Shown here in pieces: positions 5,084 to 63,134 of a stretch of DNA of 64,000 nt. This DNA comes from an uncultured Candidatus Saccharibacteria bacterium. GTDB lineage: Bacteria > Patescibacteriota > JAQUNI01. The notes under the pieces were generated by a model. The model had not been told where the DNA came from. It was given only the letters and a program-made list of their open reading frames with translations, and made no database searches. Each line of letters opens with the position of its first letter. Within the stretch, counting starts at the first letter, position 1. Position numbers and translations under genes: made by a program. The DNA is taken from positions 34,185 to 98,184 of the forward strand of contig CAZKRD010000001.1 of the NCBI GenBank assembly GCA_964555185.1, given 5' to 3'.

Positions 5084-5213
5084 AAGAAGTAATCACCAAT
5101 AACCAAGAAACAATAACCAGACAAATTCCAATAACCAAGTTCCAATTCGTTAGATAATTTGGTTATTCATTTTTTGCTGGTAGGTAGATTGATTATTAGT
5201 TTGTCCAGTGATT

Positions 5214-6245: not shown

Positions 6246-6929
6246 TTATTTGTATTGATCAAGGGCCGCCTCGGCTGCTGCTACCTGGGCTGTCTGTTTG
6301 GAGCTGCCTGTTCCTTTAGCAATCAGTTTTTTCTCAAGATAGACGCCGACAATAAAATGCTTGTTATGGTCAGGTCCGCTTTCTTTTAAGACCTGGTATT
6401 CGGGAGTAACCCCTTCTCGTTCCTGGGTTAATTCTTGAAAGTGGGATTTAGGGTCGATATATAGTTTTTCTTTGAGGATCCGAGGCAGTTTGACTAGGAT
6501 ATTTTTTTCAATGAATTTTTGGGCAACCTTGTATCCCTGGTCTAGATAAATCGCGCCAATTAAGGCCTCGAAGGCGTTGCCCAAGATGTATTCCCGCGCC
6601 TTGCCTGTGTCTTTCTTCTCCCCGCGGGAGAGATAGAGGAATCCATCCATCTCTAGGCTTTTGGCCATTTTAGCAAGCATTTTACTGTTGACTAGGCTGG
6701 AGCGCCAGTTTGTCATTTCGCCCTCCGGGTTGTCATAGTGGTGGTAGAGGTAGGCGGTAACCACAAGCTCTAAAACCGCGTCGCCTAAGAATTCCAGTCT
6801 TTCATTGTGGCCTAACTCAAAGTTATGGTTTTCGTTGATATAGGAGCGATGGACCAGGGCCTGTTTTAAGAGTTTCTGGTCCTTGAATGTAAGGCCCAAG
6901 GTTCGTTCAAGTTTAGAGAAGTCTTTCAT
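6246..6929 (-). CDS. rnc: Ribonuclease III.
   Basis: MKDFSKLERTLGLTFKDQKLLKQALVHRSY...ERLEFLGDAVLELVV carries the RNase III signature, and a dsRBD follows at the C-terminus. The ORF-track start at 6977 is a TTG; ATG at 6929 is preferred. Confidence 0.9.
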   Translation of the reverse strand: MKDFSKLERTLGLTFKDQKLLKQALVHRSYINENHNFELGHNERLEFLGDAVLELVVTAYLYHHYDNPEGEMTNWRSSLVNSKMLAKMAKSLEMDGFLYLSRGEKKDTGKAREYILGNAFEALIGAIYLDQGYKVAQKFIEKNILVKLPRILKEKLYIDPKSHFQELTQEREGVTPEYQVLKESGPDHNKHFIVGVYLEKKLIAKGTGSSKQTAQVAAAEAALDQYK

Positions 6930-7065
6930 AGTGTTAAATTCCCTGCCTACGCTCACGAGCTTCGGCAGGCGAGGCAAATTTCAAACACTCGCCTTGCGGC
7001 TTGGCTCGCCTAAGCTAGGCGAAGCGGGTGCCTGTAATTTGACATTTGTAATTTTAGAGGATTAT

Positions 7066-8077: not shown

Positions 8078-9601
8078 ATGAACAATATAATAATTTCGTC
8101 TTTCGCGGCAATAATTTTTGGTTTTGTTGGCGGTTATTTTTTACGAAGATTTTTAGCTCAAAAAAAACAAGATTCTGTCGAGGCTAAGGCCAAAGCTTTA
8201 TTAGAGGAAGCCAAGACCCAGGCCCGGGAGCTAACTTTGGGCGCCAAAGACAAGGCCTTAAAATACACAGAGGAGGCCAAGCGTGAAGAGACACAGCGAC
8301 GAAAGGAGCTTGTCGCCTCAGAACACAGGTTAGCGAGAAGAGAGCAGTTTTTAGATCAAAGATTAAATGACCTAGAGAAGAAACAAAGGTATCTTGGCAG
8401 AGAGCAAAGTCAAGTAAAAGAGGTAAAGCGCGAGGTGCTTGAAATTAAAAAGAAACAGCTTAGAACCCTAGAGCGGGTGGCCAATCTTTCTCTTGCCGAG
8501 GCAAAGAAGGTTCTTTTGGAGATGACTGAAGATGATATGAAAGAACGTTTGATCAAGAGAATCAGGAAGCTGGAGCAGACAGAACAGGAAGAGGTAGATA
8601 GGAAAGCAAAGGGAATTTTGTCTCTTGCGATTCAGAGGTGCGCTTCTTCCCATGCCTCTGAATCCACGGCCACTACCCTGTCTTTACCGTCGGATGAGAT
8701 GAAAGGTCGGATCATTGGGCGGGAGGGCCGCAACATCAATGCGATTGAGAAGCTGACTGGTGTTGAAATCGTGGTTGATGACACGCCGGAGACAATTGTT
8801 ATTTCCGGTTTCTCGCCGATCCGGCGGCAGGTGGCGAAAAAGGCCCTAGAGAGACTGATTGTTGACGGCCGGATTCATCCAGCCAGGATTGAGGAGGCGA
8901 TTTCGGAAGCGAAAAAGGAGATTGCGCGGGATATGAAAGAGGCAGGCGATAACGCTTGTTATGACACCGGGGTTGCCGGCTTGCCTCCTAAATTAATCCA
9001 GCTTTTAGGGAGACTGAAATACCGGACCAGCTATGGCCAGAATGTTCTTCAGCACTCAATTGAGGTTTCTCATCTCTCAAGACTGTTGGCGGAAGAGCTA
9101 GGCGCTGATTCAGCGCTTGCCAAGAAAGCGGGTCTTTTGCATGATATCGGCAAGGCAGTGGATCATGAAATCAAAGGCACCCATATTGAGATCGGCAAAA
9201 GTATTTTAAACAAATTCGGTGTTCCCGAAGAGATTATCAAAGGGATGCAGTCTCATCATGAGGACACGCCCCATTCTTCTTTGGAATCCTTACTTGTGAC
9301 GACAGCGGACGCAATCTCTGGGGCGCGGGTCGGGGCGCGTAAAGACACTTACGAAGATTATTTGAATCGTTTGGAGGATTTAGAGGCGATTGCTAACAAC
9401 TTCCCCGGGGTAGAGAAGACCTATGCGATTCAGGCGGGTCGGGAGATAAGGGTCTTTGTTACGCCAGAAGAAATTGACGATCTAGCCTCGGCAAAGCTTT
9501 CCCGCAAGATTGCGGACAAAATTGAGGAGGAGCTGAAATACCCAGGTGAAATCAAGGTTTCTGTCGTGCGCGAAACCAGGGCTGTAGAGTTTGCGAGATA
9601 A
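8078..9601 (+). CDS. rny: Ribonuclease Y.
   Basis: N-terminal TM helix, coiled coil, KH domain (GRIIGREGRNINAIEKLTGVEIVVDD) and HD domain (LLHDIGKAVDHE...HHED). 507 aa is typical. Confidence 0.9.
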   Translation: MNNIIISSFAAIIFGFVGGYFLRRFLAQKKQDSVEAKAKALLEEAKTQARELTLGAKDKALKYTEEAKREETQRRKELVASEHRLARREQFLDQRLNDLEKKQRYLGREQSQVKEVKREVLEIKKKQLRTLERVANLSLAEAKKVLLEMTEDDMKERLIKRIRKLEQTEQEEVDRKAKGILSLAIQRCASSHASESTATTLSLPSDEMKGRIIGREGRNINAIEKLTGVEIVVDDTPETIVISGFSPIRRQVAKKALERLIVDGRIHPARIEEAISEAKKEIARDMKEAGDNACYDTGVAGLPPKLIQLLGRLKYRTSYGQNVLQHSIEVSHLSRLLAEELGADSALAKKAGLLHDIGKAVDHEIKGTHIEIGKSILNKFGVPEEIIKGMQSHHEDTPHSSLESLLVTTADAISGARVGARKDTYEDYLNRLEDLEAIANNFPGVEKTYAIQAGREIRVFVTPEEIDDLASAKLSRKIADKIEEELKYPGEIKVSVVRETRAVEFAR

Positions 9602-9735
9602 GTTCAAAGTTCAGAATTGAGTTTAAAGTTAAAAGTTGATTAGAGAGTGTTGTTGAGTGTAAAGCGCTGGGGGCTTGTAACTTTAGACTTTGAATTATAA
9701 TTTTTAACTTTGCACTTTGAATTTTTAACTATATC

Positions 9736-10680: not shown

Positions 10681-10971
10681 ATGAAGAAACAAGAATTCGT
10701 AGAGAAGCTCGCCAAAAAGACGGATATGTCCAAGAGCCGGGCACAGGAAGTGCTTGAAGCTTTTGAGGAAATCATCACAAAGGCCCTGGTTGAAGGCGGC
10801 GAAGTGGCCTTGACTGGGTTTGGCGCTTTCTCGGTCTCTCATCGTAAAGCCCGCACCGGCGTCAATCCGCAACAACCCTCCCAGAAGATTCAGATTCCAG
10901 CGGTTGATGTCCCTAAATTCAAGGCTGGGAAGAGCTTGAAGGACGCAGTGAAGAAGCAAACCTCTCAATAG
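10681..10971 (+). CDS. hup: DNA-binding protein HU.
   Basis: MKKQEFVEKLAKKTDMSKSRAQEVLEAFEEIITKALVEGGEVALTGFGAFSVSHRKARTGVNPQ has the HU/IHF fold signature. Confidence 0.9.
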   Translation: MKKQEFVEKLAKKTDMSKSRAQEVLEAFEEIITKALVEGGEVALTGFGAFSVSHRKARTGVNPQQPSQKIQIPAVDVPKFKAGKSLKDAVKKQTSQ

Positions 10972-13129: not shown

Positions 13130-13262
13130 CATATATAGAAATAAGTTGTCATTGCCCGTAGGGGTAGGTCTTGCTTGCCTTGCCCCGCTTAGCCTGCGAG
13201 GCGGACGGTAGGCAGATGTCTACCCTGCCCGGGCGACCACGCGGGGTCGCCCCTACATTTAG
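13130..13262. repeat. Family C: GC-rich hairpin element (cccgtagggg ... ggggtcgcccctac), copy 1.
   Basis: Shares termini with the copies at 17011-17160 and 53247-53340. Much higher GC than its surroundings. Confidence 0.6.
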
Positions 13263-14403: not shown

Positions 14404-14477
14404 CAATCTATTTTGATTAAAACCAAAAAACACCTGCTACTTTCATTTTAAAGAGGTGTTTTTTGTTTTTATAAAAA

Positions 14478-16896: not shown

Positions 16897-17160
16897 AGTG
16901 AGGAGAAAGTGAAATTCCTTTTCACTTTATCCGAGCAAGAATTTCAAGCTTGCTTATAATTAGAAGTGAGGAGAAAGTGAAATTCCTTTTCACTTTATCC
17001 GGGATTATTGCAATGGCCCGTAGGGGCGGACCCATGCTCGCCTCGCTGGCGAAGCGGGTGTCCGCCCGTTGTTGGTAAACCAAGAGTAGGGCGACCACTC
17101 ACCTACGCCAAGGCTCTGGCGGGCGGGCACGGGGTCGCCCCTACGAATTGTTACATCCAA
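16897..17160. repeat. Composite family-C repeat: two 47-bp direct repeats (tataattagaagtgaggagaaagtgaaattccttttcactttatccg) followed by a GC-rich hairpin element with CGTAGGGGCG inverted termini.
   Basis: Direct repeats at 16897-16943 and 16965-17011, separated by the palindrome agcaagaatttcaagcttgct. GC-rich body at 17023-17150 ends in ggggtcgcccctacg. Related copies at 13130-13262 and 53190-53345. Confidence 0.7.
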
Positions 17161-20530: not shown

Positions 20531-20621
20531 GTTAAAAGTTAAAAGTGCAAAGTTGAGTTCAAAGTTCAAAGTTTTAGATTTTTAATTTTGAACTTTGAAC
20601 TTTGAATTTTGAACTAGAAAC
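20531..20621. repeat. Family B dyad spacer (caaagtt words): gttcaaagttcaaagtt...aactttgaactttgaa between pilB and pilC.
   Basis: Imperfect long inverted repeat built from tandem caaagtt-type words. Related spacers at 9600-9735, 29155-29262, 40764-40879 and 49795-49842. Confidence 0.6.
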
Positions 20622-23486: not shown

Positions 23487-24704
23487 ATGAACAAGGGTTT
23501 TGCCTTAATATCAGTGATTTTAATCCTAGGAGTACTTTTACTCATCGGTACCGCCTTTTTCACTTTGGTCAGTTTTGAGAATAAGATTTCTTTAAGCCAG
23601 GAATCTACTTTCGGCACCTATTACCTCGCCGAAGCTGGTATCAATGAAGTTATTTACAAATTACGAAATGATTCAGTCTGGCAGGATGAATTTGAAGACG
23701 GTACGATTGACCGCGGCTTCACCAGAACAGATGATTTGGTCGAGAGCGGGTCTTATCAAGTCAGGATAGTTTCTACAGACCCTGGCGAGGCGGACATAGT
23801 ATCAATTGGCAGATTAGACCTTCACGGCTCGATTGCCCAGAGAGTGGTTAAAACCAAGGTGATTAAAGCGGTTAACCCCAATCCCCTAGCTGATATGACT
23901 ACCTACACGGATGAGGATACCAATATCAATTTAAGTTTTGTCACAGTGGAGACCGGTAGTATATTTGCTAACGATGATTTAAATTTGTTTGCCTGGAGCA
24001 GAGCGGATATTTTAAACGGCCAAGCAATGGCGGCTGATCAGATTAATCTCCGCGGCACCTCTACTTTAAATGCTTCTGGCGGCTGCTTCGCGACTAATTG
24101 TCCGTCCGATTGTTCTTCTTGCAATCCCGCTCCGGACCATGTTGCTATGCCAATGCTTGATTTTGATTCGGATGACGAGAATTCCTATAAAAGCAAAGCA
24201 GGAGCGGTTTACACCGAGGCCGAATTTAAGGATCTTTTGGATAATAATAATCCTCTGGTTTTAGATCGCGATGTTACTTATGTCGAGGGCGATGTCAGGA
24301 TTAAGCGGGGGCACTCTCTGATCTTGAGCGGGATTTTGGTGGCGGATGGCAACATCACTTTTGGCGAATGGGCCGGAAGCAGTCATATTGAAATTAATCA
24401 CACACCAGGCAAGGGTTCGGGTTTAATTTCCAAAAACTCCATTGAGTTTATGATGCAGCCCTGGGCTGATGACATTAATATTGAGGGAGTGCTCTATGCG
24501 ATGGATCGGGTCCGGATCAGAGACATAGCCTTTATCGGCAATTTTTCTTTAACCGGCGCGATTGTGGCGCGGGAGCTTACTTTTTTTGATCTTTGGGGCA
24601 ACAGCACTCTTAATTATGATGATGATACCCTAGTCAAAACCCTTTTTGGCCCGCCGGCTGACGCGCCCGTGGTCACAATTGAACATTGGGAGGAAGAATA
24701 CTAG
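23487..24704 (+). CDS. PilX-like minor pilin / pilus tip-associated protein (PilX_N-type N-terminus).
   Basis: MNKGFALISVILILGVLLLIGTAFFTLVSFENKISLSQES matches the PilX N-terminal pattern. Large variable C-terminal domain. Confidence 0.5.
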   Translation: MNKGFALISVILILGVLLLIGTAFFTLVSFENKISLSQESTFGTYYLAEAGINEVIYKLRNDSVWQDEFEDGTIDRGFTRTDDLVESGSYQVRIVSTDPGEADIVSIGRLDLHGSIAQRVVKTKVIKAVNPNPLADMTTYTDEDTNINLSFVTVETGSIFANDDLNLFAWSRADILNGQAMAADQINLRGTSTLNASGGCFATNCPSDCSSCNPAPDHVAMPMLDFDSDDENSYKSKAGAVYTEAEFKDLLDNNNPLVLDRDVTYVEGDVRIKRGHSLILSGILVADGNITFGEWAGSSHIEINHTPGKGSGLISKNSIEFMMQPWADDINIEGVLYAMDRVRIRDIAFIGNFSLTGAIVARELTFFDLWGNSTLNYDDDTLVKTLFGPPADAPVVTIEHWEEEY

Positions 24705-24853
24705 GTTAATTTTCAATTTTCAAGTACCAATGTACTAATCAATTTTCAATTTTCAAGTATCAATTTTCAATAACCAATGACTAAATGTTCAAACTGTTTG
24801 AAAATTAAATCTATTCGAACCTTCGGATTTGATTGAAAATTGAGATTTGAAAA
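24705..24853. repeat. Family A intergenic repeat (caattttcaa... aatgttcaaactgtttgaaaattaaatctattcgaa...), copy 1.
   Basis: Near-identical to 29395-29530 and 44407-44550, and in inverted orientation to 42171-42310. Contains the palindrome TTCAAAC-T-GTTTGAA. Confidence 0.75.
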
Positions 24854-25912
24854 TTGAAAATTATATTTATGCGTGCTTTCGGTCTGGATTTATCAGACGC
24901 CAGTTTAAAATTAATTGAATTGAAGAAAGAAGGACAAAACATTGAATTGGCCAATTTTTGTGACTTGCCGCTTGCCGAAGGGGTGATTGTCAAAGGGAGG
25001 ATCGTGAAAGAAGATTTGTTAGCAACCTCGATTAAGGAAGTTTTAAAAAAAGCGCAAAAAGGAAAAGTTAAGAACCGGTTTGTTGTCTCTTGCGTACCTG
25101 AATCTGAATCATTTGTCCGGATTATTAGTCTCCCCAACCTGCCCGAGGAGGAGCTTCCCCAGGGCGTGCGCTGGGAATTTGAACAGCATATCCCTCTTTC
25201 CTTGAACCAGGTTTATTTAGATTGGCAGAAAATTGAATCAGAAGAGGAGGAAACCAAGGTTTTAGTTATCGCTTCGCCTAAGAAGCTGATTGATGCTTAT
25301 ACCAGCGCCCTGAAAAGAGGCGGCTTGATCCCCTGGGCTGTCGAGGCGGAATCAGCCGCCACTGCCCGCAGTTTAATCAAGGAGGGAGATCCGGCTTGTT
25401 TTTTGCTGGTGGATATTGGTTTTAGCCGGACCGGCCTAATTATTTATGATCATGAGACACTGCAGTTTACTTCTGCGGTTGAACCCTTTGGCCAGTCTTT
25501 TACCGATAAATTAACCGAAGATTTAAAAGTGGGCCTGAAAGAGGCAGAGAGCCTCAAGAGAACCTATGGTTTAAGCAGCAGGAAGAAGGGGCCTTCGGAG
25601 AAGGTTCACAAATCCCTCTTGCCCCTGGTTCAATTTTTGGCCAAAGAAATTAGAATCGCGCTCAAGTTTTACTCGGAGCATTTTCCCAGAGGTCAAGCGG
25701 TCAAAAAGATTGTCTTATCCGGCGGCGGATCTAAACTGAAAGGCCTAGTACCTGAACTGAAAGCGATCCTGAAAGCGGACGTTACTTTGGGCAACCCTTG
25801 GGTTAATATTCTGGATCCAGACCATAGATATCTGCCCGAGATCAGCCGTAAGGACTCCTTAAGCTACGCGACAGCGATCGGCTTGGCCTTGCGGGGTGTG
25901 GAAGGAGTGTAA
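24854..25912 (+). CDS. pilM: Type IV pilus assembly protein PilM (actin-like ATPase).
   Basis: FGLDLSDASLKLIELKKEG...VDIGFSRTGLIIY...LSGGGSKLKGL. Alternative start at M6 (24869). Confidence 0.8.
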   Translation: MKIIFMRAFGLDLSDASLKLIELKKEGQNIELANFCDLPLAEGVIVKGRIVKEDLLATSIKEVLKKAQKGKVKNRFVVSCVPESESFVRIISLPNLPEEELPQGVRWEFEQHIPLSLNQVYLDWQKIESEEEETKVLVIASPKKLIDAYTSALKRGGLIPWAVEAESAATARSLIKEGDPACFLLVDIGFSRTGLIIYDHETLQFTSAVEPFGQSFTDKLTEDLKVGLKEAESLKRTYGLSSRKKGPSEKVHKSLLPLVQFLAKEIRIALKFYSEHFPRGQAVKKIVLSGGGSKLKGLVPELKAILKADVTLGNPWVNILDPDHRYLPEISRKDSLSYATAIGLALRGVEGV

Positions 25913-27357: not shown

Positions 27358-27364
27358 ATTAGGT

Positions 27365-27418
27365 AAAATAAAAACACCAAAAAGCTTTATTTGTCATTTT
27401 TTGGTGTTTTTTATTTGT
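27365..27418. terminator. Bidirectional terminator between the convergent pilus operon and the anti-sigma gene.
   Basis: aaaaacaccaaaaa-gctttatttgtc-atttttggtgtttttt is a stem flanked by A- and T-runs. Confidence 0.6.
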
Positions 27419-29152: not shown

Positions 29153-29264
29153 AAAATAATTAAAAGTTTAAAGTGCCTGCCTTGCCGGTAGGCAGGCAAA
29201 GTTCAAAATTTTTAACTTTAAATTCAACCTTTAACTTTGAATTTTGCACTTTAAACTAAATTAG

Positions 29265-29336
29265 TGGGTCTGGTAGGATTCGAACCTACGACTGACTCGT
29301 TATGAGCGAGCTGCTCTACCACTGAGCTACAGACCC
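29265..29336 (-). tRNA. tRNA-Met(CAT), elongator or Ile-lysidine type, no encoded CCA.
   Basis: Reverse complement is GGGTCTGTAGCTCAGTGGTAGAGCAGCTCGCTCATAACGAGTCAGTCGTAGGTTCGAATCCTACCAGACCCA. Anticodon loop CTCATAA. It lacks the initiator three-G:C anticodon stem. Confidence 0.75.
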
Positions 29337-29339
29337 GGG

Positions 29340-29640
29340 TTTTCAATTTTTAATGGTTCGACTATACTCACCACCTTGAGCTTGCCGAAGGGTTTACTAA
29401 TCAATTTTCAATTTTCAAGTACCAATTTTCAATCAATTTTCAATAACCAATGACTAAATGTTCAAACTGTTTGAAAATTAAATCTATTTGAAAATTGGGA
29501 TTTGATTGAACATTGGTCCTTGTAAATTGGTAATTCAAACAATATTTTCAAGTACCAATGGTTCGACTATGCTTACCACCCTGCTTACCATCCTGAGCTT
29601 GCCGAAGGGTTTTTAAACAATTTCCAATGTTTTAATGTTT
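29340..29640. repeat. Family A repeat, largest copy: a full A unit (29395-29530) flanked by two ggttcgactat...gagcttgccgaagggttt sub-units (29353-29395 and 29562-29615).
   Basis: Direct sequence identity with 24705-24853 and 44407-44555, and with 42171-42367 in reverse. Confidence 0.75.
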
Positions 29641-33422: not shown

Positions 33423-33556
33423 ATTTAAAAAATCCAAATGCCAAAATCCAAATGCCAAATCAATAACCAATGTCAAATTTCAAATGACAAATTAATTTGA
33501 CATTAAGTTATTTGTAATTGATTTGACATTTGATATTTGAAATTTGGAATTAATAA
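33423..33556. repeat. Family B dyad spacer of the ccaaatg/gtcaaat type between rpsA and tilS.
   Basis: ccaaatgccaaaatccaaatgccaaatc ... gatttgacatttgatatttgaaatttgg form imperfectly complementary arms around a palindromic core. Confidence 0.55.
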
Positions 33557-34801
33557 TCAAGACTTTCTGGTTGGTTTCTTGGGTTTAGCTTTAGGCTTGG
33601 CTTTAGATTTAGGCTTGGCTTTAGCTTGAGCTTTAGGTTTAGCTTTAGATTGAGGCTTGGCTTCTTCTTCTTCAAGCGCCTTAATCGACAGACCGAGCCG
33701 GTGTTCCTCTGGTTCAATCGAGAGGATTTTGAATTTTCTCTTTTGCCCCACATTGAGCAGGTCTTCAAGTTTTTTCTTATCTCCTGAAGTGATTTCAGAG
33801 ATATGGGCCAGGCCGTGAATATCGCGATCCAATTGGACAAAGGCGCCAAAGGGCGAGAGTTTAGTAATTTCACCTTCTACTATTTTTCCTATTTTATACT
33901 TCCGCGCTTTTTTCTCCCAAGGGTCTTTTTTTAAGGCTTTTAAGGAGAGAGAGATCCGCGAGGAGTCAATGCTGATAATTTTTGCTTTAACCTTGTCTCC
34001 CATTTTGATTACGTCTTCTGGATTTTCAATCCTTTTCCAGGCCAATTCTGAAATATGGATCAGGCCCTCTAGGCCGTCAAAACGGATAAAAGCGCCAAAA
34101 TCAACAACGCCGGTGATCTCTCCGGAAACGATATTGCCCACTTTTAATTTTTCAATAATCTTCTTTTGCTTTTCCGCCGAGGCCTGTTTTTCGGAAATGA
34201 TCAGACGGTCTTCTTCCTGGTTTGAGTCAATGATTTTTACTTTCAATGTCTCGTTGATTAGGTTATTGAGTTTAGCTAAGATTTTGTTTCTATCTGCGCC
34301 TTCGACTCTAGGATAATGTTTGTGGTGCAGTTGGGAGACCGGGAGGAAGGCGGGGATTCCTTTGATTTGAGTTATTAAGCCCCCTTTATTGGCTTGATTG
34401 ACTTTAACCTCAATCGTTTCTTCTTTTTTGATTATTTCATTGATTTCGCGCCAAGCCGCTTCTCGGTGGGCCTTTTTTGAGGAGAGCTCCATCTTGCCTG
34501 CTTCATTTTCTATTTCTAAAACCGTGGCCGTTATTTTGTCGCCTAATTTGATTTTTTTCTCGGGATCCTCGTAAAGTTCAGGGCCGCGAATTACGCCTAC
34601 GCCAATTCCGGCGATGTCTACTTCGATTTCATTTTTGGAAACAGAAATTGCCTTTCCCTCAATCATGTCGTCTATTTGAGGGATTTTAAAAAGAGCGCCC
34701 TTTTTTTTCAGCAGTTTCTCCATGTCCGTTCCTTGTTTGGTTTTGGCCTCCTCTTGTTTCTTGATTAATTTGCTTAAATTTTTGCTTAAATCTTTATTCA
34801 T
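33557..34801 (-). CDS. rpsA: 30S ribosomal protein S1-like (four S1 domains) with a C-terminal AKPK repeat tail.
   Basis: Repeated S1 motifs (GDKVKAKIISID..., GNIVSGEITGVVDFGAFIRF..., GDKITATVLEIEN...). The tail is KAKPKAQAKAKPKSKAKPKAKPKKP. Confidence 0.8.
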   Translation of the reverse strand: MNKDLSKNLSKLIKKQEEAKTKQGTDMEKLLKKKGALFKIPQIDDMIEGKAISVSKNEIEVDIAGIGVGVIRGPELYEDPEKKIKLGDKITATVLEIENEAGKMELSSKKAHREAAWREINEIIKKEETIEVKVNQANKGGLITQIKGIPAFLPVSQLHHKHYPRVEGADRNKILAKLNNLINETLKVKIIDSNQEEDRLIISEKQASAEKQKKIIEKLKVGNIVSGEITGVVDFGAFIRFDGLEGLIHISELAWKRIENPEDVIKMGDKVKAKIISIDSSRISLSLKALKKDPWEKKARKYKIGKIVEGEITKLSPFGAFVQLDRDIHGLAHISEITSGDKKKLEDLLNVGQKRKFKILSIEPEEHRLGLSIKALEEEEAKPQSKAKPKAQAKAKPKSKAKPKAKPKKPTRKS

Positions 34802-38738: not shown

Positions 38739-38793
38739 AGGTAAGTCAAAAATTAAATATCAAAGATACAGATTAAAAGTTAAACATTGGAGA

Positions 38794-38820
38794 ATGCCGG
38801 GCAGGATGCCCGGTTTTTTG
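38794..38820. terminator. GC-hairpin terminator after gyrA.
   Basis: gccgggcaggatgcccggc followed by ttttttg. Confidence 0.7.
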
Positions 38821-38835
38821 AAATAAAAAAGATCT

Positions 38836-40763: not shown

Positions 40764-40879
40764 ATAGTTCAAAGTTAAAAGTGCAAAATTCAAAGTTGAA
40801 TTCAAAGTTCAAAGTTAAGTTTTTTTAATGATTTGGGTCTTAGATTGCAACTTTTAACTTTGCACTTTGAACTTTTAAC
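40764..40879. repeat. Family B dyad spacer between nrnA and clpP (gttcaaagttaaaagtgcaaa ... tttgcactttgaacttttaac).
   Basis: Near-perfect inverted arms of about 21 nt flanking a 60-nt core. Confidence 0.6.
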
Positions 40880-41830: not shown

Positions 41831-42170
41831 TTTGATCTAAGAGTTTATTGATCCTTTCTGCTTTTTCTTGAGAAGTGTCAACACTAAAGTGAAGTTTGGG
41901 GATCTTTCTTAAATGGAGGCGGGAACTAAGGAGGGATTGTAGCTTAATCTTATTTCTTTGTAAAGTTTTCACAATTAAGCTTCTTTTATCTTCAGGTAGA
42001 ACCGAAATCCAAATGCGAGCTTGGGACAGATCTCGAGAAGTGACAACTCGAATTATGGTCGTAAGAGTATTAGGCGGCAGATCGATTTCTGTCAAAATCG
42101 CATTTGCCAGTTCCTTTTTAATCAGGCTGTTAAGTTTTGCAATACGGTAGGACATGGGGTTAATTTTCAA
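41811..42170 (-). CDS. rbfA: Ribosome-binding factor A.
   Basis: RIAKLNSLIKKELANAILTEI...TIIRVVTSRDLSQARIWISVL. Downstream of infB, as in the canonical operon. Confidence 0.8.
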   Translation of the reverse strand: MKINPMSYRIAKLNSLIKKELANAILTEIDLPPNTLTTIIRVVTSRDLSQARIWISVLPEDKRSLIVKTLQRNKIKLQSLLSSRLHLRKIPKLHFSVDTSQEKAERINKLLDQNVKKRP

Positions 42171-42367
42171 TTTTCAAATCTCAATTTTCAATCAAATCCG
42201 AAGGTTCAATGATTTAATTTTCAAACAGTTTGAACATTTCATCATTGGTTATTGGAAATTGATTAGTAAATTGGTACTTGAAAATTGAAAATTGATTGTA
42301 AACCCTTCGGCAAGGTCCAAGCGGTGAGCATAGTCGAACCATTGAAAATCGTCAATTGAAAATTTCC
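42171..42367. repeat. Family A repeat, inverted copy, with an adjacent ggttcgactatgctcaccgcttgg...gccgaagggttt sub-unit.
   Basis: Reverse complement matches 29395-29615. Confidence 0.7.
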
Positions 42368-44160: not shown

Positions 44161-44406
44161 CTATTTTTTCTTAATAATTTGATAGACAAGGGCAACGATC
44201 AAAAAAACAGCGCCGACCCAGAAACAGCCCAGGATGAATTTCACTAGTCCACCCAAGCCCGCGAAAACCAGAATAAGAGCGAGGATAATCAGGCCTAAAA
44301 GCCAGCGCAGGGGGACGGGTAGATAGTCGGCGAAAATACCCGAAACATTATAGACGGGTTCTTTAAGGTATTTTTTCACTCCTTTTTTAATTTGCCTTCT
44401 GGGCAT
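44161..44406 (-). CDS. Small hypothetical two-TM membrane protein.
   Basis: 81 aa with hydrophobic segments. Confidence 0.4.
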   Translation of the reverse strand: MPRRQIKKGVKKYLKEPVYNVSGIFADYLPVPLRWLLGLIILALILVFAGLGGLVKFILGCFWVGAVFLIVALVYQIIKKK

Positions 44407-44555
44407 GGGAGGGGGTTAATTTTCAATTTTCAAGTACCAATTTTCAATCAATTTTCAATAACCAATGACTAAATGTTCAAACTGTTTGAAAATTAAATCT
44501 ATTCGAAAATTGGGATTTGATTGTAAATTGAAAATTGTAAATTGAAAAATTTTCT
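44407..44555. repeat. Family A repeat, copy 4.
   Basis: Identical core to 24705-24853. Confidence 0.75.
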
Positions 44556-49757: not shown

Positions 49758-49845
49758 GCCAGCAATTTACAAGCAATGGAGTTTTATAATATACTGAATA
49801 CAAACAAACTTTAAACTTTGCACTTTGAATTTTGAACTGAATCCC

Positions 49846-53189: not shown

Positions 53190-53345
53190 GTGAGCCTGCC
53201 TGCCGGTAGGCAGGGTAGGCAGGGAGAAAGTGAAATTCCTTTTCACTTTATTCGGGATTATTGTCATTACCCGTAGGGGCAACCCTTGTGGTTGCCCGTC
53301 TGTGGCATTTGTTTAGCCGACAATGGGCAACCACAAGGGTTGCCC
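53190..53345. repeat. Family C element, copy 3: cctgcc/ggcagg hairpin, agaaagtgaaattccttttcacttt hairpin, then a 25-bp perfect inverted repeat (gtaggggcaacccttgtggttgccc) around a 27-nt loop.
   Basis: The perfect inverted repeat is visible directly at 53268-53344. Confidence 0.7.
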
Positions 53346-53494
53346 CTACAAAACCGTCCCAGACTAGGTGATATTATTGGCGCATTTAAATCAATGACAA
53401 CCTGTAGTTACATCCAAAATTAAGAATTTCGAGCTTGCTTGATTTGTCTGAATTTTGCTATATTTAAAGAATGAGAATAAGATACTAGAAACAA

Positions 53495-54148
53495 ATGACC
53501 CTGCCTTCAGAAATTGAAAAAAAATTAAAACAAAAAAGTCACAAAACAATCATTGGCGTGGATGAGGCCGGGCGCGGGCCTTGGGCCGGTCCTGTGGTCG
53601 CGGCTGCTGTTTTTTTGCCGGATCGTGCTCAAAATCGCGTTTCCGATATTCTTTTGGACAGGATTACTGATTCCAAAAAAATAAGCGAAAAGCTGCGGGA
53701 GGAACTTTTTGATTTAATCTGTGAACAAGGGGAGTATGGGATTGGAATTGTAAGTCCTTTTCTTGTTGATAGATTAAATGTTTTGGGCGCTACTTTTCGG
53801 GCGATGCAAAAAGCGGTTTTGGAATTGTCTCGAGTTCTTCCTGTAGAGATTAGTTATGTTTTGGTTGATGGTAATTTAGAAATTCCCAGACTCTCTTATT
53901 TCCAGAGTCCCGTAGTCCACGGCGATTCTCTGGAGCGACTAATCGCGGCCGCTTCGATTGTCGCTAAAGTAACCCGCGATCGCTTGATGCTGAAATTAGA
54001 CAAGAAATATCCCCAGTACGGTTTTGCCCAGCACAAAGGGTATGGTACAATGGGACATAGAGAAGCATTATTACAGTATGGGGTATGTCCGGTGCACAGA
54101 ATGAGCTTTAGGCCAATTCGGGAGATTGATCAAATTTATAATTCTTAA
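53495..54148 (+). CDS. rnhB: Ribonuclease HII.
   Basis: IGVDEAGRGPWAGPVVAAAVFL is the DEAGRG active site. VDGN..., ASIVAKVTRD. Confidence 0.9.
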   Translation: MTLPSEIEKKLKQKSHKTIIGVDEAGRGPWAGPVVAAAVFLPDRAQNRVSDILLDRITDSKKISEKLREELFDLICEQGEYGIGIVSPFLVDRLNVLGATFRAMQKAVLELSRVLPVEISYVLVDGNLEIPRLSYFQSPVVHGDSLERLIAAASIVAKVTRDRLMLKLDKKYPQYGFAQHKGYGTMGHREALLQYGVCPVHRMSFRPIREIDQIYNS

Positions 54149-54284
54149 TTTCTAATTTTTAATTAATGCTTAATTTGTAATGATTTAATTTTCAAAAAAT
54201 CAAAACGCGTGATAGGTTTGAAAATTAAAAATTAGGTTATTAAAAATTGATTAAAAACTAAAAATTAAAAATTTATTCAAATTC

Positions 54285-62200: not shown

Positions 62201-62230
62201 GGCTTTTCTTTAAGGAAGCTTTCAGAAGAC

Positions 62231-62267
62231 AACCAAAGCCGCTTGAATTTTCGGGCGGTTTTTGGTT
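62231..62267 (+). terminator. Candidate Rho-independent terminator after the KH gene.
   Basis: aaccaaagccgcttgaattttcgggcggtttttggttt is a short GC stem followed by a T-run. Confidence 0.45.
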
Positions 62268-62270
62268 TAA

Positions 62271-62400
62271 TAGTCTTGTAACCTATAACGTATAACCTAT
62301 AACCTATAACATAATAACCTATAACCTGTAACTTGTAACCCAAGAATGATATTCTTTGTTTTTCAAAAAACTTGCGTTACAGGTTACAAGTTACACGCTA
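62271..62400. repeat. Family B dyad spacer of the taacctat type, with the nested palindrome aagaatGATattctt, upstream of trmD.
   Basis: About 8 tandem taacctat-like words, then an inverted arm gttacaggttacaagttac. Confidence 0.6.
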
Positions 62401-62406
62401 CAAGAT

Positions 62407-63081: not shown

Positions 63082-63134
63082 AAAGGCCGCCTTTTATGTT
63101 AACAAGGCGGCAAGGGCTGGCTCGAGAAAGTAAT

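What the first reader, a model, noticed from the sequence alone, without database searches (positions are those of the whole stretch)
29340..29640. Family A intergenic repeat (~140-200 bp) in four or more copies with a TTCAAAC-N-GTTTGAA palindromic core and a tRNA-like ggttcgactat sub-unit
Near-identical copies lie at 24705-24853, 29395-29530 and 44407-44555, and in inverted orientation at 42171-42310. The consensus is caattttcaattttcaagtaccaattttcaatcaattttcaataaccaatgactaaatgTTCAAACtGTTTGAAaattaaatctattcgaaaattgggatttgattg. The copies at 29353-29395, 29562-29615 and 42298-42350 add a GC-richer sub-unit, ggttcgactat(a/g)ct(c/t)accacc...gagcttgccgaagggttt, that resembles a tRNA T-arm. One copy abuts tRNA-Met. 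This density of a long repeat in about 20 kb is unusual for a small genome.
Basis: seen in the sequence. Interest (0 to 1): 0.7.

Follow-up and report, generated by a model that had tools for sequence, protein, structure and literature searches.

The report
Palindromic heptad-repeat mobile element family
The repeat is real: a 130–170-base, AT-rich, hairpin-forming, non-coding element that looks like a miniature transposon and has been copied into the tiny gaps between genes of an ultra-small (CPR/Patescibacteria) bacterium, even inside its ribosomal-protein operon; this is notable because such streamlined genomes are thought to carry few repeats.

Summary
Four copies lie at 24705-24863, 29396-29540, 42160-42297 (inverted) and 44416-44548, with a degenerate fifth at 54132-54277. 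Three copies of a GC-richer unit are nested at their edges.

Each copy is an imperfect palindrome. Its arms are arrays of the heptad AATTTTC and its complement. The centre is the 23-nt palindrome AATTTTCAAAC-N-GTTTGAAAATT.

Full-length copies end in a perfect 17-18-nt terminal inverted repeat with TA at both ends. They have no coding capacity and fill the gap between a stop codon and the next ATG.

The family is not local. More copies lie elsewhere on the same 707-kb scaffold and on a second scaffold, including between ribosomal genes S5 and L15. About 47 non-redundant relatives occur in other CPR genomes and metagenomes.

A close relative shows element gain or loss, replacement, solo-end remnants and length changes in multiples of 7 nt.

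I found no compensatory evolution, no bias towards the transcribed strand and no Rfam match. The tRNA-like reading and the operator idea have no support.

Best reading: a MITE-like foldback element, closest in behaviour to Neisseria Correia elements. It is one family within a genome-wide habit of heptad palindromes at operon junctions. The transposase and any host function remain unknown.

The parts
24705..24863 (+). Family A copy 1, full length with both ends intact (TA-ATTTTCAATTTTCAAG ... TTTGAAAATTGAAAAT-TA). It fills the gap between the pilX-like gene's stop codon (24702-24704) and the pilM ATG (24869).
24784..24806 (+). 23-nt core palindrome of copy 1 (AATGTTCAAACTGTTTGAAAATT)
29346..29395 (+). 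GC-richer unit u1 (GGTTCGACTATACTCACCACCTTGAGCTTGCCGAAGGGTTT), nested at the left edge of copy 2, next to tRNA-Met
29396..29540 (+). Family A copy 2. The left terminus is replaced by the GC unit and the right arm is a variant. It lies between a 311-aa ORF (-) and tRNA-Met (-).
29457..29479 (+). 23-nt core palindrome of copy 2
29556..29615 (+). GC-richer unit u2, carrying an internal 12-nt duplication (TGCTTACCACCC x2.2)
42160..42297 (-). Family A copy 3, inverted relative to the others by its asymmetric core. Its right terminus GAAAATTA lies 5 nt before the rbfA ATG. It sits in the infB|rbfA gap.
42216..42238 (+). 23-nt core palindrome of copy 3
42298..42349 (-). GC-richer unit u3 attached to copy 3
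44416..44548 (+). Family A copy 4, in the gap between the DAGK-like gene and an 81-aa ORF (both on the - strand). The orthologous gap is only 28 nt in relative L074.
44472..44494 (+). 23-nt core palindrome of copy 4
54132..54277 (.). Degenerate family A-like copy. Its core halves are split by about 19 nt (aattttcaaa[aaatcaaaacgcgtgatag]gtttgaaaatt).

Best explanation
Family A is a non-coding, non-autonomous mobile element of the MITE type with a foldback design.

Anatomy:
- The master copy is 168 nt.
- It has perfect 17-18-nt terminal inverted repeats (TAATTTTCAATTTTCAA / TTGAAAATTGAAAATTA).
- TA sits at both ends.
- The arms are arrays of the heptad AATTTTC and its complement.
- The centre is AATTTTCAAAC-loop-GTTTGAAAATT.

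Shown here:
- Copies were pasted into the very short spacers between a stop codon and the next start codon of co-directional genes, in either orientation.
- After insertion the arms change length by slippage in units of 7 nt.
- Small GC-rich modules insert into the elements.
- Elements are partly or wholly deleted, leaving solo ends.
- Other heptad-palindrome families can replace them at the same junction.

Inferred:
- A transposase supplied in trans moves them. A TA-targeting DDE enzyme of the IS630/Tc1-mariner type is the obvious candidate. It was not found.
- The element is co-transcribed within operons and folds into a 45-55-bp AU-rich hairpin.
- That fold-back is what makes it tolerable between an upstream Shine-Dalgarno-like motif and the downstream ATG.
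- The hairpin is a plausible RNase III substrate.
For: Anatomy:
- Defined termini, with TA at every intact end in copies that have unrelated flanks.
- AT-rich: the gaps these copies fill are 23-32% G+C.
- No ORF.
- Predicted hairpins of -29 to -44 kcal/mol, z -2.5 to -7.4.

Dispersal within one genome:
- 4 copies plus 1 degenerate copy in the window.
- 2 more at 53-74 kb on the same scaffold.
- 2 full copies, plus variants, on scaffold_19.
- Both orientations occur.

Dispersal across genomes: 3 loci in 2 GTDB species genomes, and 66 metagenome contigs giving 47 non-redundant copies.

Gain and loss:
- The DAGK|81aa gap is 149 nt here but 28 nt in L074.
- Against the close relative L081: L4|L23 is filled only in L081.
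- SecY|Adk is 146 nt here versus a 19-nt solo end in L081.
- At Map|RuvX a different family is present in each genome.
- A sister family shows a clean 129-nt whole-element indel at L22|S3.
- The GC unit is a clean insertion.
- Heptad slippage gives length differences of exactly 49 and 14 nt.

Consistent with a selfish element, not a selected structure:
- 0 of 42 pairs are compensatory.
- The arms are no more complementary to their own partner than to arms of other copies.
- There is no difference between sense and antisense in stability or in G:U pairs.

Effects on the host:
- The elements sit inside the S10-spc ribosomal operon, so they cannot be strong terminators.
- The MITE criteria and the Correia precedent come from PMC10969869 and PMC2649163.
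Against: - No transposase or autonomous partner with the same ends was found in about 125 kb of this genome or in the fetched loci.
- TA is itself a palindrome. A TA target duplication therefore cannot be told apart from a terminal repeat that simply begins with TA.
- No filled/empty pair for family A itself has flanks that can be aligned base for base. The clean indel belongs to a sister family, and deletion explains it equally well.
- The most conserved part across lineages is the centre, although my search pattern partly forced that. In classical MITEs it is the termini.
- In more distant relatives the same junctions hold heptad palindromes of other sequence. That could mean the site needs a hairpin, not just that the junction tolerates insertions.
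- Paralogous copies are no more alike than orthologous ones (92% vs 91%), so recent activity is low.
Confidence: 0.6

Rival explanations
1. A host-selected structured spacer between genes. On this view the long AU-rich hairpin exists because the operon needs it. It could be an RNase III processing or stability site. It could bridge the upstream Shine-Dalgarno-like motif to the downstream ATG. It could act as a transcriptional insulator carrying outward promoters. Copy-and-paste would be only the way it was acquired.
For: - Orthologous junctions (infB|rbfA, DHH|clpP, bactofilin|DAGK) hold heptad palindromes of different sequence in relatives with only about 62% IF-2 identity.
- 33 of 81 sampled co-directional junctions are AT-rich palindromes.
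- SD-like motifs are enriched in the last 28 nt of the upstream gene: 55% against 26% of coding background, p about 4e-4. Only 6% of the downstream starts have an SD.
- The element's end lies a tight 5-10 nt before the ATG.
- Outward TTGAAA-N17-GAAAAT promoter-like sites at the element ends would place a transcription start at the pilM and rbfA ATG.
- An RNase III gene is present (window 6246-6929).
- Stems reach 18-20 contiguous pairs.
Against: - No compensatory substitutions.
- No element-specific covariation between arms.
- No preference for stability or G:U pairs on the transcribed strand (14 vs 17 copies; 85 vs 91 pairs).
- The same junction can be empty or hold only a solo end in a close relative.
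- The SD enrichment is only marginal against ribosomal-protein genes (39%), and SD use is low genome-wide.
- The promoter matches are 9/12 consensus hits in repetitive AT-rich DNA.
Confidence: 0.2
2. Growth in place without transposition. Heptad microsatellites expand by slippage in spare intergenic DNA of a repair-poor genome. They become palindromic by template switching or fold-back synthesis. Gene conversion then homogenises them between loci.
For: - Length differences of exactly 7 and 2 heptads between close relatives.
- Many heptad flavours exist, and each is used in both arms of its palindrome.
- The SecY|Adk element carries a matched change in the arms and the core (AATTTCC / GGAAATT).
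- At L22|S3 the outermost arm unit is already present in the 'empty' genome.
Against: - Nine or more loci share the same non-repetitive internal sequence (AATAACCAATGACTAAATG, the asymmetric G in the core, GTACCAA) and sharp common ends next to unrelated flanks. Independent local growth cannot produce that.
- A full copy is present at L4|L23 in one genome only.
Confidence: 0.14
3. The palindromic core TTCAAAC-N-GTTTGAA is the operator of a DNA-binding regulator, or a DNA-uptake signal for the type IV pilus and competence machinery. The repeats would then mark a regulon or uptake sites.
For: - The 23-nt perfect palindrome has an unconstrained centre base and is conserved at four positions my search pattern did not force.
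- One copy lies in a pilus operon.
- Inverted DNA-uptake sequences at gene ends are known in Neisseria (own knowledge; Kingsford 2007, PMC1852404, was listed but not read).
Against: - The core is never found outside the elements.
- Its halves are 1 to about 19 nt apart in different copies.
- The flanking genes are unrelated housekeeping genes.
- The copies sit after stop codons, not at promoters.
- There are too few copies, and the distribution across lineages is too patchy, for an uptake signal.
Confidence: 0.04

Closest known systems
Correia repeat-enclosed elements (CREE / nemis) of Neisseria
   Same: - Length of about 100-160 nt, non-coding, with terminal inverted repeats, TA at the ends, a characteristic conserved core and many dispersed copies next to genes.
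- Length variants arise by internal deletion or duplication, and single-repeat remnants occur.
- Outward promoter-like sequences are created at the ends.
- The transcribed hairpin is an RNase III substrate.
- No transposase is known.
(PMC2649163 and PMC10969869. That the Correia target duplication is TA is from my own knowledge.)
   Different: - There is no sequence similarity.
- Here the arms are tandem heptad arrays, not a unique 26-bp repeat.
- The whole element is a near-palindrome.
- The core is itself a perfect palindrome, not a directional core with an IHF site.
- The host is a CPR bacterium.
- Promoter activity, IHF binding and RNase III cleavage are untested here.
Prokaryotic MITEs in general (ERIC, RUP, BOX, Nezha, Rickettsia palindromic elements)
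   Same: Under 500 bp, AT-rich, with terminal inverted repeats, intergenic, multi-copy, giving stable stem-loop transcripts, and showing presence/absence differences between relatives (PMC10969869).
   Different: - No parent insertion sequence is known.
- The target duplication is ambiguous.
- The terminal repeats are made of short tandem repeats.
- Several parallel families with the same design but different heptads share one genome and replace each other at the same junctions.
Intergenic heptamer arrays: cyanobacterial STRR repeats and the TAACTGA repeats of Beggiatoaceae, Cyanobacteria and Bacteroidetes
   Same: Tandem 7-nt units in intergenic DNA, often immediately upstream of start codons that lack a canonical ribosome-binding site; patchy phylogenetic distribution; unknown mechanism (PMC4679880; STRR from my own knowledge).
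   Different: - Those are direct-repeat arrays. Only one inverted set was reported in the Beggiatoa genome.
- Here every array is paired with an inverted partner around a centre.
- Whole units with unique internal sequence are copied between loci.
Eukaryotic Foldback (FB) transposons
   Same: Long inverted arms that are themselves built from short tandem sub-repeats, so the whole element folds back on itself (own knowledge).
   Different: Those are eukaryotic and kilobase-scale, and some carry coding capacity. No evolutionary link is implied; this is an analogy of design only.
REP / REPIN elements mobilised by RAYT (Y1) transposases
   Same: Hairpin-forming intergenic repeats that spread within a genome. 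The GC-rich modules nested in these elements (cccgtagggg, cctgcctgccggcaggcagg) look REP-like, and relative L074 encodes a Y1 transposase next to such hairpins.
   Different: Family A is AT-rich, lacks the GTAG-type REP head, has TA-flanked terminal inverted repeats and is 130-170 nt. No Y1 gene was seen in the sampled parts of this genome.

Membership tests
MITE (criteria from PMC10969869) | Small size (50-500 bp) with no transposase or other coding capacity | tested here: met
   Copies are 117-170 nt and the master copy is 168 nt. They are AT-rich heptad arrays with no ORF.
MITE (criteria from PMC10969869) | Terminal inverted repeats of about 4-30 bp | tested here: met
   TAATTTTCAATTTTCAA / TTGAAAATTGAAAATTA is a perfect 17-nt repeat in w24 and in L033/L079 S5|L15. 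One end is intact in w42, w44 and L030.
MITE (criteria from PMC10969869) | Flanking direct repeats made by target-site duplication | tested here: inconclusive
   TA is present at every intact end. TA is palindromic, however, so it may belong to the terminal repeat. No family A filled/empty pair has flanks that align base for base.
MITE (criteria from PMC10969869) | AT-rich, in AT-rich intergenic DNA, with a transcript predicted to form a stable stem-loop | tested here: met
   The gaps these copies fill are 23-32% G+C (the three without GC units 23-25%), against about 43% for the window. MFE is -29 to -44 kcal/mol, z -2.5 to -7.4.
MITE (criteria from PMC10969869) | Multiple dispersed copies and evidence of mobility (presence/absence between genomes) | tested here: met
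   At least 8 full copies at unrelated loci on two scaffolds of one genome. L4|L23 is filled only in L081. The DAGK|81aa gap is empty in L074. Solo ends and replacement were seen.
MITE (criteria from PMC10969869) | Mobilised in trans by a related autonomous insertion sequence that shares the terminal repeats | not testable with these tools
   No transposase was found in the roughly 125 kb sampled, and the whole genome could not be read. Patterns spanning more than 600 nt cannot be searched.
Correia element (CREE) of Neisseria | The 26-bp Correia repeat and the CCGGTACGG...TCAGGACAA core; restricted to Neisseria | tested here: not met
   The sequence is unrelated and the host is a CPR bacterium. 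The likeness is in behaviour only.
   ARAGORN and Rfam at E<=10 give no tRNA-like hit on the unit. Fold z is about 0. The unit is on the opposite strand to tRNA-Met.
Any curated RNA family (Rfam 15) | A match at or above a family's gathering score | tested here: not met
   Only the 5 tRNAs reach threshold. The relaxed search gives weak plant miRNA-precursor hits, which simply reflect a generic long AU hairpin.
Intrinsic (Rho-independent) terminator | GC-rich stem followed by a T run, at the end of a transcription unit | tested here: not met
   The terminator scan found none within the elements; its only hits near copy 4 (44395-44413) lie mainly in the 81-aa ORF's start and flank. Copies lie inside the S10-spc ribosomal operon. 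Convergent gaps in the window use classical terminators instead.
REP / REPIN-RAYT system | GC-rich 20-40-nt palindromes with a conserved GTAG-type head, together with a cognate Y1 (RAYT) gene | tested here: not met
   Family A is AT-rich and has no such head. The three ORFs at the position that holds a Y1 gene in L074 (38836-40166) have no Pfam hit; the rest of the window's ORFs were not scanned. The nested GC modules may belong to such a system, but they are a separate feature.

The most novel reading that the evidence does not exclude
Heptad-array foldback elements may be more than parasites. They could be a clade-wide way of building operon junctions in these CPR bacteria. On this reading the hairpin loops the spacer out of the mRNA, so that a Shine-Dalgarno-like motif at the end of the upstream gene is brought next to the downstream ATG. 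Alternatively the hairpin is cut by RNase III. Either way, roughly 40% of co-directional junctions, including a dozen in the ribosomal-protein operon, would depend on interchangeable, fast-evolving palindromes for coupled expression.
Probability: 0.15. Interest if true: 0.8.

Novelty: new variant of a known kind. Interest (0 to 1): 0.55.

Why it matters
CPR/Patescibacteria genomes are treated as highly streamlined and poor in repeats. In this genome, however, about 40% of sampled junctions between co-directional genes hold 60-280-nt AT-rich palindromes built from 7-nt units. That includes about a dozen junctions in the S10-spc ribosomal operon. At least one family (this finding) has been copied around the genome and occurs in other CPR lineages.

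I found no description of this in the literature I searched.

It matters in three ways:
- **Assembly and annotation.** 12 of 58 non-redundant occurrences of the core pattern lie at contig ends, so these repeats break assemblies.
- **Operon expression.** It raises the question of how essential operons are expressed when a 150-nt hairpin separates the upstream ribosome-binding-like motif from the start codon.
- **Mobile-element biology.** It is an unusual design: terminal repeats made of tandem heptads, a palindromic core with a free loop, and no known transposase.

Tried and rejected
- **Rfam.** At gathering thresholds and at E<=10 it gave only tRNAs plus weak generic-hairpin miRNA hits.
- **tRNA-like GC unit.** Rejected.
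- **Element-specific arm covariation.** Absent.
- **Compensatory changes.** None among the 8 same-genome copies.
- **Bias towards the transcribed strand.** None in stability or in G:U pairs.
- **Enrichment between co-directional genes.** About 80% of copies lie there. I did not measure the share of co-directional junctions in CPR genomes and, from my own knowledge, expect it to be similar, so this is not informative. True convergent cases exist (L028, L067).
- **Classical terminators inside the elements.** None found.
- **Strong promoters.** Only 9/12 consensus matches.
- **Viral contigs and GenBank phages.** No copies.
- **Near-strain empty site for the window copies.** The closest IF-2 relatives are only 61-63% identical. 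I therefore used the ribosomal locus, where a relative with 90% S5 identity exists.
- **Window edges.** The 13.6 kb beyond them holds no further copy.
- **Within-genome homogenisation.** Not seen: 92% vs 91%.
- **Y1/RAYT association.** The weak Y1 transposase is in relative L074 only. The equivalent window ORFs have no Pfam hit.
- **TIGR or CRISPR array.** Considered and dismissed without a test: the period is 7 nt, there are no spacers, and no Cas/Tas gene showed up in the calls I made (the window's ORFs were not scanned systematically).
- **S8|L6 length difference between L079 and L081.** This reflects different start-codon calls, not an insertion.

Full report
**1.

The repeat finder, a self-BLAST and direct reading confirm the Family A copies:
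- 24705-24863
- 29396-29540
- 42160-42297 (inverted)
- 44416-44548
- A degenerate copy lies at 54132-54277.

A 29-nt stretch (AAATGTTCAAACTGTTTGAAAATTAAATC) is identical in all four copies. The 23-mer AATTTTCAAAC-N-GTTTGAAAATT, allowing up to 3 mismatches, occurs four times against 0.02 expected, and only inside the elements.

The GC-richer unit is present at 29346-29395, 29556-29615 and 42298-42349. tRNA-Met (29264-29336) does abut one composite copy.

**2. Anatomy**

*Palindrome.* Each copy matches its own reverse complement at about 74%. As a single strand it folds into a long hairpin of -29 to -44 kcal/mol (z -2.5 to -7.4) on either strand.

*Heptad arms.* The arms are arrays of AATTTTC on the left and GAAAATT on the right. 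Tandem Repeats Finder independently reports period 7.

*Ends.* I oriented the copies by the one asymmetric base in the core and aligned them. This reveals a 168-nt master copy with perfect terminal inverted repeats, TAATTTTCAATTTTCAA ... TTGAAAATTGAAAATTA. TA is present at every intact end, next to unrelated flanks.

*Position between genes.* The element fills the whole gap between two genes. Its left end lies 0-5 nt after the upstream stop codon or overlaps it. Its right end lies 5-10 nt before the downstream ATG.

*Orientation.* Both orientations relative to transcription occur.

**3. Context and organism**

The flanking genes are ordinary housekeeping genes: pilM, ftsH, infB, rbfA and others.

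The window comes from a 706,972-bp scaffold of a metagenome-assembled Patescibacteria (CPR) genome. Its closest IF-2 relatives are only 61-63% identical: Doudnabacteria/Torokbacteria-like.

A crude gene map shows that Family A is one of several families with the same design but different heptads. They lie in gaps between co-directional genes:
- AAGTTCA
- CAAATGC
- AATAACC
- TATAACC

Convergent gaps carry classical GC-stem/T-run terminators. Divergent gaps carry TTGACA/TATAAT promoters.

**4. Not local and not an artefact**

*Other genomes.* A pattern scan found the same architecture in two GTDB species genomes, a Jacksonbacteria genome and another Patescibacteria genome. It also found it in 66 metagenome contigs, which give 47 non-redundant copies.

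*Extent of the core.* In those copies the core palindrome extends four positions beyond what the pattern forced, and the centre base is free.

*Same genome, other loci.* Contigs from another assembly carry copies 99-100% identical to the window's but with different flanks. Exact-sequence look-ups place those flanking proteins on the same scaffold outside the window and on a second scaffold of the same assembly.

Fetching those loci showed the following:
- Full copies at S5|L15 and GT2|GalT.
- A truncated copy at 459aa|GT2b.
- A copy at GT2b|DUF4012 whose core is split by 16 nt.
- A variant at SecY|Adk whose arms and core both carry the matched change AATTTCC / GGAAATT.

Nearly every wide gap in the S10-spc ribosomal operon holds a heptad palindrome of some family. 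Of 81 sampled co-directional junctions, 33 are AT-rich palindromes of 60 nt or more.

**5. Evolutionary behaviour**

*Distant relatives (about 62% IF-2 identity).* In the syntenic loci the same junctions hold heptad palindromes of different sequence (infB|rbfA, DHH|clpP, bactofilin|DAGK). The DAGK|81aa gap, which holds a Family A copy here, is only 28 nt in L074.

*Close relative L081 (S5 90% amino-acid identity, 93% nucleotide identity).* It is fully syntenic and shows all of these:
- Length differences of exactly 49 and 14 nt, that is, 7 and 2 heptads.
- A Family A copy at L4|L23 in L081 only.
- A 146-nt element at SecY|Adk here, against a 19-nt solo end in L081.
- A 66-nt mini-element in L081 made of terminal repeats only.
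- Different families at the same junction (Map|RuvX).
- A clean 129-nt whole-element indel in a sister family (L22|S3).
- GC units as clean insertions into an orthologous Family A copy (GT2|GalT).

*Age.* Paralogous copies (92%), the orthologous pair (91%) and the flanking gene (93%) are about equally diverged. The family is therefore about as old as the split between these two genomes, with a few younger events.

**6. Tests of function**

*RNA structure.* Nothing supports a selected RNA structure:
- None of 42 predicted pairs shows a compensatory change.
- An element's arms are no more complementary to each other than to the arms of other copies. Arms do match at the level of heptad family.
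- The transcribed strand is not favoured in stability (14 vs 17 copies) or in G:U pairs (85 vs 91).

*Known RNA families.* Rfam finds only generic-hairpin noise.

*Termination.* No intrinsic terminators lie within the elements; the scan's only hits near copy 4 (44395-44413) sit mainly in the 81-aa ORF's start and flank. Copies sit inside the ribosomal operon, so strong termination is implausible.

*Promoters.* Outward TTGAAA-N17-GAAAAT matches at the element ends would start transcripts at the pilM and rbfA ATG. They are only 9/12 consensus hits.

*Operator idea.* The core halves are separated by 1 to about 19 nt in different copies. That fits a hairpin loop, not a fixed-spacing operator.

*GC unit.* It is not tRNA-like.

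*Shine-Dalgarno pattern.* One suggestive pattern remains. Shine-Dalgarno-like motifs are enriched at the end of the upstream gene: 55% against 26% of coding background, p about 4e-4. The enrichment is only marginal against ribosomal-protein genes. The motifs are nearly absent before the downstream ATG. This looks like tightly coupled gene pairs split between SD and start codon. From it I infer that a fold-back insert is tolerated because the hairpin brings the two flanks back together. That is inference, not demonstration.

**7. Comparison with known systems**

By the criteria in PMC10969869 the element meets these MITE features: size, terminal inverted repeats, AT-richness, stem-loop, multi-copy dispersal, and presence/absence between genomes.

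Two points stay open. The target duplication is ambiguous, because TA is palindromic. The autonomous partner is unknown.

In behaviour it most resembles Neisseria Correia elements (PMC2649163). It shares no sequence with them.

It differs from typical MITEs in three ways:
- Its terminal repeats are made of tandem heptads.
- Its centre is palindromic, with a free loop.
- It coexists with parallel families that replace each other at the same junctions.

Intergenic heptamer arrays in Beggiatoaceae and cyanobacteria (PMC4679880) are the nearest precedent for the 7-nt unit, but those are direct repeats.

Literature searches found no description in CPR. No copies occur in viral or phage collections.

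**8. Verdict**

This is a real, dispersed, MITE-like foldback element family. I rate it a new variant of a known kind (confidence about 0.6). It sits within a striking and apparently undescribed habit of heptad palindromes at operon junctions in a CPR clade. Whether the host uses these hairpins is open (about 0.15-0.2).

Noticed in passing
window 9602-9735, 20531-20620, 29154-29263, 40764-40879, 49797-49845; L079 S3|L16 and GalT|Sm; L077 PfkB|FtsW: A second dispersed palindromic family (family B) built of AAGTTCA / TGAACTT heptads. Two copies flank tRNA genes (between tRNA-Ala and tRNA-Met; a half-array directly upstream of tRNA-Arg). Several have a GC-rich module at the centre.
   Followed up: partly
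window 5084-5213, 33423-33556, 62201-62406; L079 L3|L4, S19|L22, L22|S3, L5|S14, Map|RuvX: Further heptad-palindrome flavours: AATAACC/AATCACC, CAAATGC, TATAACC/GTTACAA and GTTAACG. In the sampled roughly 125 kb, 33 of 81 co-directional junctions are AT-rich palindromes of 60 nt or more, including about a dozen inside the S10-spc ribosomal-protein operon.
   Followed up: partly
window 29170-29200, 13150-13260, 17000-17150, 53230-53400; L079 4170-4195, 5785-5815; L074 13204-13337 and 13917-14555: GC-rich palindromic modules (cctgcctgccggcaggcagg; cccgtaggggc...gcccctac) are nested in or next to the AT-rich elements. One is a clean 31-nt insertion polymorphism between L072 and L074. L074 encodes a Y1 (IS200/RAYT-type) transposase (PF01797, E 3.8e-7) flanked by GC hairpins, so this may be a REP/RAYT-like system.
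   Followed up: partly
window 16902-16959, 16970-17027, 53223-53280: A 58-nt repeat beginning GGAGAAAGTGAAATTCCTTTTCACTTTAT occurs three times (two in tandem). Each is followed by a cccgtagggg-type GC module. Its function is unknown.
   Followed up: no
window 42140-42160, 44400-44420; L079 9585-9600: Genes directly downstream of the elements lack a Shine-Dalgarno sequence and are instead preceded by C-rich tails (TTAACCCC-ATG, AACCCCCTCCC-ATG, ACTCCC-ATG). Genome-wide, only about a quarter of starts have a strong SD.
   Followed up: partly
L014, L017, L022, L026, L030, L038, L042, L045, L052, L062, L066; L005; L080: Many contigs end inside or right at a Family A copy (12 of 58 non-redundant occurrences of the core pattern). 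The Logan contig L005 spans exactly from one copy to the next. These repeats evidently break short-read assemblies of CPR genomes.
   Followed up: no
window 14405-14477, 27358-27418, 38739-38835, 63082-63134: All four convergent gene pairs in the window use textbook bidirectional intrinsic terminators (GC stem plus T run). Canonical termination signals therefore exist in this organism and are distinct from the heptad palindromes.
   Followed up: no
window 6246-6929 (-); L075 4113-4403 and 5483-7006: The genes for RNase III (Ribonuclease_3 plus dsRBD), HU and RNase Y lie in the window (about 6246-6977, 10681-10971 and 8078-9601). These are the obvious candidates for acting on long hairpins or bent AT-rich DNA.
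   Followed up: no
L076 15715-18241 (about 1.8-4.3 kb beyond the window's right edge, equivalent to window 64604-67130): A 2.1-kb stretch with no called gene is followed by a LAGLIDADG homing-endonuclease ORF. This may be an intron-bearing rRNA gene, as reported for CPR.
   Followed up: no
window 33578-33654: An 18-nt tandem repeat (CTTGGCTTTAGCTTTAGG, 3.9 copies) lies at the 3' end of the 414-aa ORF 33557-34801 (-), i.e. a repetitive C-terminal tail in the protein.
   Followed up: no
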